From: a virus
Taxonomy: Duplodnaviria > Caudoviricetes
Reading direction: 5' to 3' (one strand)
Virus record (IMG/VR): IMGVR_UViG_3300010365_001248
Coordinates: 99,913 to 163,912 of that record
Length of the DNA: 64,000 bases
This document shows positions 31,301-57,329 of this stretch, piece by piece. How positions within the stretch are numbered: position 1 is the stretch's first letter; every line of letters starts with the position of its first letter. The notes below the pieces were generated by a model. The model did no database searches. It saw only the letters and a program-made list of their open reading frames with translations, and was not told the DNA's origin. A program made the position numbers and the translations under genes.

Positions 31301-33442
31301 TATATATTTCATATTTAAATTTTAAATTTATTCCATTTCGGAGTTTATTTCTCCTACATCCATTCGGATTAGTCGTTGAACGTTCTTTAGAGCTTCCTAA
31401 AAGGCTTGCTTGATCTAAAGCTTCGCTGCTGATTGCCATTTTACAGGTTTCCAGCAATTAAGAATATGATTATACTGAGGCAATGTTTAAATATCAGTTT
31501 ACCACAGTCAGACATTTCTGGTTTACGATTGGAAATAAATCTTGTTAAAGTACCAGCAGAATAAGTTTCAACAGCGTGTTCTGCTATTACATCAATAGTA
31601 GAATAATCATCTGCCATAGCTTGAGCAGGTACCTCATAAAGATTATCAGCCATACGTGTAGGATGTCCAATTACACAGAACTGCTCACCATCATCATCAA
31701 CTTTGAAATATTCATCAATTTGGTAATAATTTTCTGCAAAGTAGAAATATAGATCAGATCCTTTCTTTACAGGAGCAGCTGCCATAGGTACACGTTTAAT
31801 TTCATTTGTTTCCAAATATATTTCTATATATTACTATATAGTTTAGACTATATCATTTACTATGTTTATGATATTTAAAAATATATTCTTTACAATATTT
31901 ATCTCCAAGCATAATATTTTTTAAATTTGAGGATCTTAAATTATATTTTTCTTTAACTTCTTTAATAGAATTTAAAGTTTCTATAAAATCTCCATATTTA
32001 GTAAAAATATCTACTCGAATACTATTTCCATGTGATGTGGGTTTTTCAGGAATAGTAGTTTCTTCTTGTAAAGATATATAAAAATTTTTATACCAATTAT
32101 TGTAATATCTAAAAATATCAGATATTTTACTCCATGAGTATAAATTTAAAATTGGCATAATTTCTTTTCCAATAAATTTCCCTATAAATTTATGTTCTTG
32201 GTAAACATAATATGTTAAATCTTTATATTGGAGCCTAGGTTTAGGTTTAAAACAATCAGTTAATTTATAAGATATATAATACTACTTTTGACATAAAGAT
32301 TCTAATTTGATATTCTTATTTATATTTGCACATGTAGTATTTAAAAATTTAGCACATTCTGATTGTGAACTAAATTCATTTAATAACTTACCATCTTTAT
32401 TATATAAATAAACTGTTTGAGGTTCTTTAGTAATATAATCATTTATATTAATATATTCAGAATAACTCCAATAACTATTTAAAAATTTATATTTACCATA
32501 TATAGGGGAATGAAATTTAGTAGCAGGATATCCATAAAACTCAAAAGCATCTTTAGAATATTCCCATTTTTTAACTAAATTTCCCTCTAAATCAAATTGA
32601 TATAAAGGAATTCCGTTATTATTACAAATTCCTCCAACTACAACATTATAAACATGTGACTATTTAATAAATTCTGTAGTTACTAAAGCCTCTTCTTTTT
32701 TATAGGCTTCTTCAGGAGAATCAAATTCAAATAACGTAACTCTTTTAAAAGCAGCTGGTCCATATTTTTTTACTGCACATTGAAATGGTGTTTTAGGATA
32801 TTTATATGTAGAAATTTGCTATTCATATACTCCACAACCTAAATACCCATCAAATATATCAGGATTTTCAGTTTTATGAACCCCTATATATATTTTATAT
32901 TTACCGTTTATTTTTGATTTAAAATTTATTGTTAGATACACAATATATTTCATAGTAATTCAGTTTTTTAATTATTAAAAAATAATTTACACTTCTCAGT
33001 TAGTCGTTGAACGCTGTTGTAATTACAACCACGCTGCTGATTGTCCTAATGGTCTAGGAGTTCCCAGCAATTTAAAGAATTTTTGTTATTATTCGATATT
33101 AAATATCGCGGAGGTCTCAACTAATGAAATGTTTAATCTCCCCAGATTAAACTTTAAGACCATTTATGTTAGTTTAAGTATTTTCAATATATTTTACAAT
33201 ATAAAGGAGCAGGAAATTTACTCATATACCATATTTTCTAGTCCCTTAAATTCATCAGACTTTTTATCTTTTGACCAAATATTTCCTAGTGCTTCTGTTA
33301 AGAAAGTAATAGTATTTTCTGGATATAAACGAGATAAAAGACCTAGCTGATCAGGACGTTTACCTAAGAATGCAGAAAAGTCCTGATATGTACGTGTCTT
33401 GCCCATTTCAGGTCTCTTCGTCATAAGTTTAGAAACTAACAT
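28362..33442 (-). CDS. Major capsid protein, 5 exons (33442-33220, 33142-33135, 31812-31501, 30555-30268, 28952-28362), 473 aa spliced
   Basis: Exons total 1422 nt; junctions give MVYE-WEI-ETNEIKR, SDCG-FVKYQS, TGRP-IQGGDG; every 5' splice site is U|AAA and every intron ends in G. Confidence 0.88.
28953..30267 (-). mobile_element. Group I intron 4 of MCP with homing endonuclease
   Basis: Core motifs AATTGCTGGAA, AATCAGCAG, GTTCAACGACTA, GATATAGTCT; terminal G at 28953. Confidence 0.9.
28996..30096 (-). CDS. GIY-YIG homing endonuclease with NUMOD1-type repeats (TAG=Gln)
   Basis: YIVYITIN..NQKFYIGVH; repeated YQY.K.G.LIK units; joins two ORFs over TAG at 29836. Confidence 0.85.
30556..31500 (-). 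mobile_element. Group I intron 3 of MCP with homing endonuclease
   Basis: Same P/Q/R/S core motifs; GGT|AAAC 5' site; TTG| 3' site. Confidence 0.9.
30596..31312 (-). CDS. GIY-YIG homing endonuclease with NUMOD1-type repeats (TAG=Gln)
   Basis: MKYIVYQTIN..NNKIYIGVH; 717 nt; TAG at 31157-31159. Confidence 0.85.
31813..33134 (-). mobile_element. Group I intron 2 of MCP with homing endonuclease
   Basis: Core motifs at 33000-33075 and 31840-31856; P1 GGAGAUU/GACCUCC with U.G at the splice site. Confidence 0.88.
31853..32953 (-). CDS. GIY-YIG homing endonuclease with NUMOD1-type repeats (TAG=Gln)
   Basis: MKYIVYLTIN...KIYIGVHKTENP; 1101 nt; several in-frame TAG; TGA stop overlaps intron S element. 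Confidence 0.85.
33135..33142 (-). other. 8-nt micro-exon of MCP (GGGAGATT; supplies W-E-I)
   Basis: Restores frame between exon 1 and exon 3; flanked by G| and U|AAA. Confidence 0.8.
33143..33219 (-). other. 77-nt core-less group I-like mini-intron (intron 1 of MCP)
   Basis: P1 GAGU/GCUC with U.G, 8-bp P10 with the micro-exon, GUAA-capped hairpin, terminal G; no P3-P8 core. Confidence 0.75.
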
Positions 33443-46404: not shown

Positions 46405-48811
46405 ATATTTTTTATAGTATCATTATAAGGATTTCCATCCTTCTATTGTTTAAGTTCCAAATCAATCTGTTTTTCTTTAAGTGCAATTTCTTGTGTTTTA
46501 TAAGTACGATTTGTTTGAGCTTCATACCATTTAACTTGATAATCTAAGTTAATTTTATGTTGTTCTAATCGCATTTTTTCTGCATTTAAGTATTTTAATT
46601 CAGATTGAGCTACATCTAATTCTTGTTGTAATTGTGTATTCTAATTAGATAATTCTTGAAGTTTTTGTTCTAATTGTTGTATCTAATCATTTTCTTTCTT
46701 TTTAATAGCTAAAGCCTAATTAATTTTAGCTTTTAACTCAGAAAGACTTTTTGTAGTTAAAGCTTCAAAAATTGTAGATGCATCTAATAATCCATTAGAA
46801 ATAAAATCAGGAATTAACTGTTTAATCTACATTAATTCTTCCATAATCTAAGTAGAAGGAACTATATGAATATCAAAATCAGTTACTGTAAAATATTCAG
46901 GAAGTGCTGTAAAAATTTTCTATTGATTATGTCCTAAAATTAAAGTTCCTGTAATTCCGTTTTTATATACTGTTTTAGCAATATTTAAGCTATCTATTAA
47001 AATTTCATTTGTTACCATATCCATTTGTTGATAAATAGGTTTAGTTATTTTAAACGAATTTTCAACACCTTGTTTAATATTAGATACGGCATCTCGTTGT
47101 TCTATACCATTAAGTCTTTCTCTAAATACTCCTGTAATTTGACTAACTTCTTCTTCAATAGACTATAAAGCTAAATCTATAGCTTGTATAGCATTAGGAG
47201 ATAAAGTATCATCAAATCCATTAAATATAGTATTTAAAGGAGCACTGCCATCAATTCTGCCTTCCTATGTAGTGTCAATCATGGCTAAACCATTCTTTTT
47301 GTAAGCTTCCCATTTTTTAACACGTTCAATAAAATCTGGTCCTAAATTTTTTGGAATCATAGAAAGATCTAGAATTTGCCCTTTAACACCACTATTAGCT
47401 ACAAGAATATCTCTATAGTAATGTAAAAGGTCATACTACATTATCTTCATTAGGGTCGTTAATCCTAACCGTTTACACTGCTCTAATTTTCATTAGAAGT
47501 TGAGACTATATCATACTTAATATTATTAATAATTTTTATATTAAGTTCCCGCACTTCGATTGAACTTTCAATCTACATAATAGTCGTTGAACCTTCCTAA
47601 AAGGCTTGGCTGCTGATTGCCCTCGACTTAACGTTAGGAGTTTCCAGCAATTCACGGGATTTATACAGGACTAGTAAAAGTCAATCCTGTTGATGAGCAC
47701 ATTTTAAAATTAAACTATATGGCTAACTAGAACGATTTAAATAATATACTCCATTAATACTTAAAGAACATTTTTTAGGATTACTTATAGATCTATAAGT
47801 ATTATCATCTACTGGATTAATAATATAAATATCTCCACCAATTCTAATAACAGAATATCTGTGCATAACATTATTTGCATCTACATCTAACCATTCAACT
47901 TCATAAACTGGAATTAAATGATTATTTAAAGAAGTTCTGTCTTGTGTAGGTAAAATATCTTTATCTTCACCCTAAGTTATTGGATGTAGATATTCTATAG
48001 AATTAATCTGTATTCTTTTATAATTAGCTTCACTAGTAGATTCTATCTCTTTTTTTATTTTGTTTCTATTTTCTTTAGAAATTTTATTTCCATACATAGA
48101 TAAAATAGTGGAAGGAGTGAGCCATCTTCTAGCTACTGCTTTATTAGACTCCTTAACATAAGGAGAATTTGGATTCATTTCAATAAAAGTATCTCGTGGG
48201 TCTAATACTTCTATATTAATATTATTGTTCGCAAGGGATGGTTTAACTTGATAATAAGTATAACCAGTAATTAATAAATCTAAAAGGAGCATCCTTAATT
48301 TAGTTACTATATCAGCATCTTTAGATTGTAATAAATACTGTATTACATTCTGTGCAGCTATTTCATACTCAGATATAAAATTTTTATCTATATCACTAAT
48401 TAGAGTATCTAATTGCTATTTAATATGAGTATCTGTATTTTCTTGCCCATTAATTTGTTTTAATAAAAAACGGGTTAAATGTTCTTCAAGTTCTTTTTTA
48501 ACTGCTTGCGTAATAGCTAATTGTTTATCTCTAAAAATATTGGAAATTGTAGATTCATCTTTACAAGAAACTTTTGGAACAATAGGAATTCCTAAATATT
48601 CACCAACTAAAGCATCTATGTGCTTTCTAAGTAAAGGAGTGAATTTTACTGATGTTGGACTTCCTATTCCAAAATTTTCTTCTAAATATCTAAATTGTTC
48701 AGCATCTCTTTTACCATTATAATAATTGTAGGCTCTTTGGAGTTCTGTTTTATCATAAACTAATTCCCCAATAATAGAATTAGTCTATTCAATTAATTCA
48801 TCTTTTGTCAT
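46401..48811 (-). CDS. Portal protein, 2 exons (48811-47684, 47438-46401), 721 aa (TAG=Gln)
   Basis: AYNYYNG...FTPLLRKHIDALVGE...QQD|QYDLLHYYRD...TGVFRERLNGI; spliced length 2166 nt. Confidence 0.9.
47439..47683 (-). mobile_element. ORF-less group I intron in portal (245 nt)
   Basis: P1 CAGGAU/GUCCUG, P10 UACUA/UAGUA, same core as MCP introns, terminal G. Confidence 0.92.
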
Positions 48812-57221: not shown

Positions 57222-57240
57222 TAAATATATGATTAATTAG

Positions 57241-57329
57241 TTAGGGAGCTGGGACTCGAACCCAGATCGACGCCTTCAGGGGGCAACCAGATTTAGAGTC
57301 TGTCATAATAACCATTATACCACTCCCCA
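57241..57329 (-). tRNA. Amber suppressor tRNA, anticodon CUA (presumed Gln)
   Basis: Cloverleaf: acceptor UGGGGAG/CUCCCUA, anticodon loop CU-CUA-AA, T-arm CUGGG-UUCGAGU-CCCAG; 21-nt variable region; CCA not encoded. Confidence 0.93.

What the first reader, a model, noticed from the sequence alone, without database searches (positions are those of the whole stretch)
33131..33152. Micro-exon sequestered in a perfect hairpin: possible ordered-splicing switch
Seen: on the minus strand GUUUAAUCU-GGGG-AGAUUAAAC forms a 9-bp stem. Its 5' arm is the end of the mini-intron; its 3' arm covers the 5' splice site of intron 2; the mini-intron 3' splice site sits in the loop. This stem competes with intron 2 P1 (GGAGAUU/GACCUCC) and with the mini-intron P10. 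Inference: it blocks intron 2 excision until the mini-intron is removed, so the donor core is not lost first.
Basis: partly seen in the sequence, partly recalled or inferred. Interest (0 to 1): 0.8.

Follow-up and report, generated by a model that had tools for sequence, protein, structure and literature searches.

The report
Splice-site hairpin of a core-less mini-intron
In a gut crAss-like phage's capsid gene, a 77-base leftover of a self-splicing intron that has lost its catalytic part folds back onto the 8-base exon and the guide sequence of the next intron, which should force the leftover to be removed first, an arrangement I could not find described and could not test on RNA.

Summary
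The hairpin is exactly as described: 33152-33131, minus strand, 9 perfect pairs, GGGG loop. Natural alleles in 46 related phage contigs fix the gene structure. Some have no intron here and read ..VYEWEIETNEIK... Eleven carry only intron A, nine only a full 1292-nt group I intron "M", and 26 (window type) carry a 77-nt remnant of M plus A. The mini-intron (33219-33143), the 8-nt micro-exon (33142-35) and both splice sites are therefore real.

The mini keeps M's guide sequence (P1', P10') and terminal G but has no core. Together the two stems make A's P1 8.6 kcal/mol worse than the alternative fold.

A-only introns have a strong P1 and barely pair with the mini. Window-type A has a weakened P1 and pairs strongly with it. 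Full intron M, which has no A downstream, has a homologous 6-bp hairpin around its 3' splice site. The hairpin is therefore primarily an M-type 3'-splice-site element, and ordering is an added, plausible effect.

No RNA data could be obtained. This scan has noted core-less mini-introns beside phage introns in other genomes before.

The parts
33220..33442 (-). Exon 1 of the crAss-type major capsid gene (MLVSKL..NMVYE; U33220 is the first base of the Trp codon completed by the micro-exon)
   Evidence: ORF. Uninterrupted homologues L001 and L002. L001 ORF matches Pfam Crass_capsid PF23898. Intron-free close alleles P0008, P0010 and P0014 read ..NMVYEWEIETNEIKR...
33143..33219 (-). 77-nt core-less mini-intron, a remnant of group I intron M; starts AAAUUUCC, ends AAUCUG (terminal G33143)
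   Evidence: Absent from 11 A-only alleles that are otherwise collinear. A full 1292-nt intron M occupies the same site in 9 loci. First 17 nt are identical to M. No Rfam hit of its own. Not repeated elsewhere in the genome.
33207..33223 (-). P1' (exon GAGU 33223-33220 with GCUC 33210-33207; U33220.G33210 wobble at the 5' splice site) and, directly 5' of it, the P10' guide UUCCU (33215-33211), which pairs with GGGAG 33142-33138
   Evidence: Read from sequence. P1' pair probability 0.84. The same helix is aligned as P1 of full intron M by the Rfam group I model.
33188..33203 (-). P2'-like hairpin UAUAUU-GUAA-AAUAUA at the position of M's P2 (GUAC-UGUGAG-GUAC)
   Evidence: The sequence is replaced but a hairpin is retained. 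It competes with the extension of P1' in the minimum-energy fold.
33154..33161 (-). Outer stem, 5' strand (GGUCUUAA, in the mini-intron)
   Evidence: Pairs with 33120-33113 in the minimum-energy folds; pair probabilities 0.6-0.99.
33131..33152 (-). The reported hairpin: 5' arm 33152-33144 (mini-intron tail), loop GGGG 33143-33140 (holds the mini-intron 3' splice site), 3' arm 33139-33131 (micro-exon AGAUU plus intron A AAAC)
   Evidence: Invariant in 26/26 window-type loci. Homologous 6-bp hairpin in full intron M.
33135..33142 (-). 8-nt micro-exon GGGAGAUU (with U33220 it encodes Trp-Glu-Ile)
   Evidence: Contiguous with exon 1 in A-only alleles and with exon 2 in M-only alleles. W-E-I is present in intron-free alleles. 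W/Y-E-V/I in distant homologues.
33110..33120 (-). Intron A guide region: outer-stem 3' strand UUGAGACC (33120-33113) overlapping the P1(A) guide GACCUCC (33116-33110)
   Evidence: Differs from A-only introns (UUUAGAUCUCC) at two bases, both of which improve pairing with the mini-intron; one of them breaks a P1(A) pair.
31813..33134 (-). Group I intron A with a GIY-YIG/NUMOD1 endonuclease ORF (32953-31853, three in-frame TAG); terminal G31813
   Evidence: Rfam RF00028 43.4 bits, E 4.5e-10 for 33145-32961 and 22 bits for the 3' end. NUMOD1 hit. Boundaries fixed by intron-free and M-only alleles.
31501..31812 (-). Exon 2 (ETNEIKRVP..SDCG)
   Evidence: P0025 reads ..SDCG|FVKYQ...

Best explanation
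The hairpin is the 3'-splice-site hairpin of a helper-dependent remnant of group I intron M. The 77-nt mini-intron kept only the substrate parts of a group I intron: P1' with a U.G wobble, the adjoining P10' guide, a P2-like hairpin and the terminal G. It lost P3-P9 and its endonuclease gene. Its 3' half pairs with the 8-nt micro-exon plus the first 4 nt of intron A (the 9-bp hairpin) and with intron A's guide sequence (an outer 8-bp stem). While the mini-intron is present, intron A therefore cannot form its own P1, and its catalytic core is left unoccupied. I infer three steps. First, the P1'/P10' helix docks into that free core in cis. In this view the two-tier stem acts as an extra peripheral arm that joins P1'-P2' to A's P2-P3. 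Second, the mini-intron is excised by ordinary group I chemistry. Third, loss of the two masking strands lets P1(A) form, so A splices second. Shown here: the anatomy, the splice sites, the descent from M, the predicted dominance of the masking fold, and its restriction to mini+A alleles. Inferred: that the mini-intron is spliced, which core does it, and that the order is enforced in vivo.
For: (1) Splice sites and the required mature sequence are fixed by natural alleles: none, A-only, M-only and mini+A. (2) The mini+A allele occurs in 26 loci from many samples, on contigs up to 173 kb, so an essential capsid gene must be expressed from it. (3) The mini always occurs with A (26/26), and I saw no mini-only allele and no full-M+A allele among 46 loci. 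(4) The first 17 nt (P10' and P1' guide) are identical to M, against about 74% identity over the rest. The exon codon that pairs in P1' is GAG in all 35 M or mini alleles but GAA, GAC or GAG in A-only alleles. (5) The masking fold is -27.3 kcal/mol against -18.7 with P1(A) forced; hairpin pair probability is about 1 and P1(A) 0. (6) The mini's 3' half binds window-type A with -12.1 kcal/mol but A-only introns with only -2.2 to 0. P1(A) alone is -3.6 against about -9 kcal/mol. (7) The hairpin is kept, with changed flanks, between M-only (UCAAUC/GAUUGA) and mini+A (GUUUAAUCU/AGAUUAAAC). This includes one G-C to A-U double change where the downstream sequence differs. (8) An engineered group I ribozyme can excise a core-less intron from another RNA (PMC4094466), so the chemistry is feasible.
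Against: There is no RNA evidence at all. The mini+A alleles are one clade with very low diversity, so the association with A's altered 5' end is effectively one evolutionary event. Conservation of the guide could reflect recombination with M alleles, since the U/A polymorphism at 33215 is shared by mini and M alleles. The perfect stem could have arisen by template-switch correction of a quasi-palindrome rather than by selection. Introns B and C on the same transcript, and 10 or more other group I introns in the genome, could supply a core, which would make order unnecessary. After excision the mini-intron would stay paired to A by 17 bp (estimated Kd in the nM range) and would have to be displaced. 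The energies ignore tertiary structure and proteins.
Confidence: 0.45

Rival explanations
1. The hairpin is only the inherited 3'-splice-site hairpin of intron M. Masking of A's P1 is a tolerated side effect. The mini-intron is removed in any order by whichever group I core is available: B, C, excised introns in trans, or a co-infecting phage's M.
For: Full M has the homologous hairpin with no intron A downstream. There are many related cores on the same transcript and in the genome. The invariance among 26 loci is uninformative.
Against: It does not explain the outer stem, or the two guide-sequence changes that weaken A's P1 while strengthening pairing to the mini. With P1(A) disfavoured by 8.6 kcal/mol, A is unlikely to go first anyway. 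Recognition of an untethered P1 hairpin in trans is known to be weak (general ribozyme enzymology, from my own knowledge).
Confidence: 0.2
2. The 5' splice site has shifted and the capsid protein is split. Intron A uses GGUCUU|AA (33161-33156) with GAGACC as its P1, with a U33156.G33118 wobble. It removes the hairpin and micro-exon as intron sequence. The capsid protein is then made as a 74-aa piece plus a piece starting at the in-frame AUG 10 codons into exon 2 (MAAAPVKK; exon 2 starts at 31812).
For: The outer stem looks like a good P1 with a U.G wobble, and both guide substitutions improve it.
Against: Ligation to exon 2 is out of frame with exon 1. About 15 residues of the block conserved in distant homologues (E-W/Y-E-V/I-x-T-N-x-I-K-R) would be lost. 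P10 for this site is only 2 bp. A split gene would not need the splice-site shift at all. The upstream AUG at 33163 is not conserved, with U33162 being G or A in 11 of 26 loci.
Confidence: 0.08
3. Ribosomes hop over the insert, as in T4 gene 60. Take-off is at GAG (33223-33221), followed by UAA, and landing is at GAG (33140-33138), giving ..VYE-I-ETN...
For: Matched take-off and landing codons, a stop codon right after take-off, and a stem-loop starting at the take-off codon. The gene 60 gap travels with a mobile element (bioRxiv 10.1101/2022.08.31.505936).
Against: The product lacks the conserved Trp-Glu. The gap is 80 nt, not 50, and contains a cognate GAA. The hop still needs intron A to be spliced, which the hairpin masks. 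The retained P1'/P10'/terminal G point to splicing, and the insert demonstrably descends from an intron.
Confidence: 0.04
4. Repair scar in a crippled allele. The inverted repeat arose by fold-back or template-switch repair after endonuclease cutting, and the mini-intron is not removed. These genomes rely on co-infecting relatives or are dead ends.
For: Two homing sites 8 bp apart invite messy double-strand-break repair. Several simultaneous changes that perfect a stem are typical of quasi-palindrome correction (from my own knowledge).
Against: The allele is the commonest of the four in the collection, occurs on near-complete genomes from many samples, and is combined with two different endonuclease modules. 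All other capsid exons are intact.
Confidence: 0.08

Closest known systems
P(-1) hairpin of the Tetrahymena pre-rRNA (5'-exon stem that competes with P1; Woodson and Cech, cited from my own knowledge, paper not retrieved)
   Same: An upstream sequence pairs with the exon bases that must pair with the intron's guide sequence, so P1 formation and splicing are held back by an alternative local hairpin.
   Different: Here the masking strand belongs to another intron and would leave with it. A second stem masks the guide sequence itself. The loop carries a splice site.
Tandem (side-by-side) group I intron modules and 'ratchet' splicing in fungal mitochondria (Hypomyces cox3, Ophiostoma ips cob/cox3; review PMC8393795), and mitochondrial mini-exons (PMC10352661)
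   Same: Two group I modules lie next to each other, the upstream module is predicted to go first, and exons of a few bases lie between introns.
   Different: In those cases both modules have cores. Here the upstream one has none, the setting is a phage, and an explicit masking structure is present.
Staphylococcus phage Twort gene with three group I introns and exon skipping (Landthaler and Shub 1999, as cited in PMC3073962)
   Same: Several related group I introns in one phage gene, with mis-joining (exon skipping) as a real hazard of closely spaced introns.
   Different: All Twort introns are complete ribozymes, and no 8-nt exon or masking hairpin is reported.
Engineered group I 'spliceozyme' (PMC4094466)
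   Same: A group I core removes an intron that has no core of its own and joins the flanking exons.
   Different: It is artificial, acts in trans, and the ribozyme carries the guides. Here the dependent intron carries its own guide and is tethered in cis.
crAss-like Zeta-group phages with intron-riddled capsid genes (PMC7886860)
   Same: Same kind of genome: 145-192 kb, a suppressor tRNA, up to 14 introns, and a capsid gene in five fragments of which only three gaps encode intron proteins.
   Different: That paper does not describe core-less introns, micro-exons or splicing order.

Membership tests
Group I intron (Rfam RF00028): intron A | Conserved core P3-P8 with guanosine-binding P7 | tested here: met
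   43.4 bits, E 4.5e-10 over 33145-32961, plus 22 bits for the 3' end. This is below the 50-bit gathering score because the endonuclease ORF splits the model.
Group I intron: intron A | 5' splice site after U paired to G in P1; intron ends in G; precise absence in relatives | tested here: met
   U33135.G33116; G31813; intron-free and M-only alleles.
Group I intron: the 77-nt mini-intron | P1 with a U.G wobble and an adjoining P10 guide that aligns both exons; terminal G | tested here: met
   GAGU/GCUC, UUCCU/GGGAG, G33143. The same helix is P1 of full intron M by the Rfam model.
Group I intron: the 77-nt mini-intron | Own catalytic core (P3-P9) | tested here: not met
   The 77 nt align only to about the first 97 nt of M, with the P4/P5 5' strands deleted. 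No Rfam hit. It is therefore a derivative of a group I intron, not a self-sufficient member.
Anti-P1 (P(-1)-type) regulatory hairpin | Alternative helix that uses the P1 exon strand and is more stable than P1 | tested here: met
   +8.6 kcal/mol penalty for P1(A); pair probabilities 1.0 against 0.0. In silico only.
Anti-P1 (P(-1)-type) regulatory hairpin | Measured effect on splicing rate or order | not testable with these tools
Programmed translational bypass (T4 gene 60 type) | Matched take-off and landing codons, a stop after take-off, and a product collinear with homologues | tested here: inconclusive
   GAG/GAG and UAA are present, but the product would lack the conserved Trp-Glu and the gap is 80 nt.

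The most novel reading that the evidence does not exclude
A natural helper-dependent group I intron. It has lost its whole catalytic core but is still spliced, because its own P1/P10 substrate helix docks into the core of the next intron 8 nt downstream. A two-tier RNA switch built from its 3' half keeps the helper's own P1 closed until the dependent intron has left. The remnant may persist because it keeps the M homing site occupied, and so immune to the M endonuclease of competing phages.
Probability: 0.35. Interest if true: 0.85.

Novelty: new variant of a known kind. Interest (0 to 1): 0.7.

Why it matters
Group I introns are defined as self-sufficient ribozymes. A natural intron that keeps only its substrate helices and relies on a neighbour's core would be the group I counterpart of degenerate group II and group III introns, and a natural version of the engineered spliceozyme. 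It would also be a step on the conceptual path from self-splicing to trans-acting splicing machinery.

The masking structure would be a rare case of enforced splicing order in a bacterial virus. It sits in the most highly expressed late gene of an abundant gut phage lineage.

Nature has already provided the allelic series (no intron, A only, full M only, mini+A), so the idea can be tested directly. It also matters for annotation: such capsid genes are currently called as fragments, and 8-nt exons are missed.

Tried and rejected
- Relatives in the scanned collections: protein- and pattern-based scans of viral contigs and metagenome contigs found nothing. I searched for exon 1, the hairpin, intron A's P2, and the two possible half-spliced forms. 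Relatives came instead from the protein-cluster route.
- One pattern hit (L013) is an unrelated intron in another phage.
- The mini-intron is not a repeated element: BLAST against the 164-kb genome gave only AT-rich chance matches.
- Single exons hit no PHROG; the full-length homologue did.
- The hairpin is not terminator-like.
- A capsid start at AUG 33163 is rejected. It is out of frame with exon 2, and the AUG is lost in 11 of 26 loci.
- Single-intron readings (VY|ETN or VYE|ETN) are rejected by the intron-free alleles.
- My first placement of intron C's 5' splice site was wrong and was corrected from natural alleles.
- Covariation within the 26 window-type loci is not possible, because the hairpin does not vary.
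- The L5 loop GACCA is complementary to UGGUC in the mini-intron, but I treat this as chance: about 0.15 expected, and 33162 is polymorphic.
- The Foley et al. 2000 and Landthaler and Shub 1999 papers are not held.
Full report
**What the region is**

The window is the last 64 kb of a 163,912-nt IMG/VR virus record. It carries a tRNA with anticodon CUA and many in-frame TAG codons. The genome has at least ten matches to the Rfam group I intron model. This profile fits the intron-rich, recoded Zeta group of crAss-like phages described in PMC7886860.

On the minus strand a capsid gene lies in four large coding blocks, separated by three group I introns that each carry a GIY-YIG/NUMOD1 endonuclease ORF. 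Uninterrupted homologues exist in two gut phage records (L001, L002). The L001 protein matches Pfam Crass_capsid and a PHROG major head protein.

**The observation**

A 9-bp hairpin alone is not beyond chance, since about 16 distinct ones occur in the window against 6.5 expected in random sequence. Its weight comes from its context.

**Gene structure, fixed by natural alleles**

The exon 1 ORF belongs to a 90%-identity cluster of 18 protein variants with different lengths. I fetched 46 loci, which fall into three classes, and a fourth class is known from proteins alone.

| Class | Count | What it shows |
|---|---|---|
| No intron at this junction | proteins P0008, P0010, P0014 | reads ..NMVYEWEIETNEIKRVP.. 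|
| A only | 11 loci | ..GA(G/A/C)U GGGAGAUU followed directly by intron A |
| M only | 9 loci | ..GAGU followed by a full group I intron "M" |
| mini+A (window type) | 26 loci including the window | ..GAGU, 77 or 78 nt, GGGAGAUU, intron A |

- In the four M-only loci that include its 3' end, intron M ends ..CAAUG before GGGAGAUUGAAACA. It is 1292 nt in L017, has its own core and a 360-aa endonuclease, and scores Rfam E 6e-10.
- The 77 nt (33219-33143) are therefore an insertion after a U that ends in G, at the insertion site of intron M.
- GGGAGAUU (33142-33135) is a true 8-nt micro-exon.
- Intron A runs from 33134 to 31813. The Rfam model also places A's P1 on GGAGAUU/GACCUCC.

**What the 77 nt are**

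They align to about the first 97 nt of M.

- Bases 1-17 are identical to M. These are the guide: UUCCU pairs with the micro-exon (P10'), and GCUC pairs with exon 1's GAGU with a U.G wobble (P1').
- M's P2 hairpin is replaced by a different hairpin with a GUAA loop.
- The 5' strands of P4 and P5 are deleted, and everything from P4' to near the 3' end (core and endonuclease gene) is gone.
- The element has no core of its own and is not repeated in the genome.
- It contains an in-frame UAA, and its length is not a multiple of three.

The mini+A allele is the commonest of the four. It occurs on near-complete genomes from many samples, combined with two different endonuclease modules in intron A. 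The capsid protein must therefore be made from it.

**The masking structure**

Minimum-energy folds show the reported hairpin nested inside a second stem, GGUCUUAA (33161-33154) with UUGAGACC (33120-33113). The second stem covers most of intron A's guide sequence.

- Both strands of A's P1 are therefore sequestered by the mini-intron's 3' half.
- The fold with these stems is -27.3 kcal/mol. Forcing P1(A) gives -18.7 kcal/mol.
- Pair probabilities are about 1.0 for the hairpin, 0.6-0.99 for the outer stem and 0.0 for P1(A).
- The hairpin can form before A's guide is even transcribed.

**Comparison with A-only introns**

All 11 A-only introns begin (G/U)GACUA.UAUUUCAUUGUUUAGAUCUCC. This gives a perfect 7-bp P1 plus a 4-bp extension. 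All 26 window-type introns begin AAACAUUUCAUUAGUUGAGACCUCC.

| Quantity | Window-type A | A-only introns |
|---|---|---|
| Binding by the mini-intron's 3' half | -12.1 kcal/mol | -2.2 to 0 kcal/mol |
| A's own P1 hairpin | -3.6 kcal/mol | about -9 kcal/mol |

Two guide-sequence substitutions improve the outer stem, and one of them breaks a P1(A) pair. This fits co-adaptation. The caveat is that the window-type alleles form one low-diversity clade (6 variable columns in 175, none in the hairpin), so it is effectively a single evolutionary event.

**The hairpin is older than the mini+A arrangement**

In the four M-only loci that include its 3' end, with no intron A downstream, the tail of M pairs with the exon just past its 3' splice site. 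The hairpin is UCAAUC-[AAUG|GGGA]-GAUUGA, with pair probability about 0.95.

The AAUC/GAUU core is shared with the window's hairpin. The flanks differ in step with what follows GAUU: exon GA in M-only alleles, intron A's AAAC here. This includes one G-C to A-U double change. A 3'-splice-site hairpin is therefore a feature of M-type introns, kept by compensatory change. In the mini+A context it has been lengthened from 6 to 9 bp and supplemented by the outer stem.

The hairpin was not invented as an order switch. Its overlap with P10' is only two bases, so a 7-bp version could present the splice site in its loop to the guide.

**Most likely mechanism (inferred)**

While the mini-intron is present, A's P1 cannot form and A's core is free. 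The two-tier stem acts topologically as an extra peripheral arm between P1'-P2' and A's P2-P3, so P1' sits where a P1 normally would.

1. Guanosine attack at 33220|33219.
2. Exon ligation at 33143|33142, guided by P10', removes the 77 nt.
3. The masking strands leave, P1(A) forms, and A splices.

Group I cores can excise core-less introns when engineered to do so (PMC4094466). Exon skipping among close phage introns is documented for Twort (cited in PMC3073962). Upstream-first "ratchet" splicing of tandem modules has been proposed for fungal mitochondria (PMC8393795).

I give this full chain a probability of about 0.45. I put removal of the 77 nt by group I chemistry at about 0.75.

**Rivals**

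- The hairpin is merely inherited, and order is irrelevant because other cores act.
- A shifted 5' splice site after U33156 gives a split capsid protein. This is out of frame and loses a conserved block.
- A gene 60-like ribosome hop from GAG to GAG would lose the conserved Trp-Glu and still needs A to be spliced.
- A repair scar in a crippled allele. This is contradicted by the allele's abundance.

**What could not be done**

Scans for half-spliced forms found nothing. There is therefore no RNA evidence.

**Earlier notes of this scan**

Unchecked AI notes report core-less mini-introns of 29-46 nt just upstream of full group I introns in capsid genes of at least three other phage genomes. One note describes neighbour-dependent P1 pairing suggesting splicing order. 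The general phenomenon has therefore been seen before in this scan on other DNA. The population series and the explicit two-tier masking structure are what this locus adds.

Noticed in passing
window 47481-47693 (genome C1:147393-147605), minus strand: The best group I intron match in the genome (82 bits, above the Rfam cut-off) lies in this window. The whole-window gathering scan missed it, so Rfam's fast filters seem to lose introns in this AT-rich DNA.
   Followed up: no
genome C1:32616-33703 and C1:63112-64384 (outside the window): Two clusters of three small group I intron matches each, within about 1.1-1.3 kb. The exons between them can only be about 100-300 nt, so further micro-exons or remnants may be hidden there.
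   Followed up: no
window 30267/30268: Intron C's 5' splice site lies after ..STGRP (CCU|AAAC), not at the end of the open frame. The ORF tail KLKWAA is intron read-through, shown by intron-free alleles P0017, P0018 and P0025. Introns A, B and C all begin AAAC, and M and the mini-intron begin AAAU.
   Followed up: yes
window 31853-32953 against L024 2990-4048: The endonuclease gene in the window's intron A is 90-100% identical to that of A-only genomes. Most other mini+A genomes carry a different 352-aa endonuclease (about 60% DNA identity) in the same ribozyme frame, so endonuclease modules are being swapped within one intron.
   Followed up: partly
L016 4507-5139 and L017 4505-5137: In the M-only genomes L016 and L017 the next intron site in the capsid gene holds a LAGLIDADG endonuclease ORF (PF03161) instead of the GIY-YIG one seen in the window, so several intron sites in this gene are polymorphic for different elements.
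   Followed up: no
window 57240-57329, minus strand: A tRNA with anticodon CUA (amber suppressor), 90 nt long. That is long for a Gln tRNA, so the amino acid inserted at TAG is not settled by this alone. I read TAG as Q only by convention.
   Followed up: no
window 33045-33050 and 33158-33162: The P5 loop of window-type intron A (GACCAU; AAA or AUA in A-only introns) contains GACCA, complementary to UGGUC in the mini-intron. This could be a tertiary contact but is within chance, and U33162 is polymorphic.
   Followed up: partly
window 33221-33223: The exon codon that pairs in P1' is GAG in all 35 alleles with M or the mini-intron, but GAA, GAC (Asp) or GAG in A-only alleles. This could reflect constraint from P1' or co-conversion with the intron.
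   Followed up: partly
window 31813-31825 and 31804-31812: Intron A's own 3' splice site also sits in a small hairpin, AUUUG|GAAA-CAAAU (5 bp, GAAA loop starting at exon +1). It is weaker in A-only introns (AAUUG). Splice-site-spanning hairpins may be a trait of this intron family.
   Followed up: no
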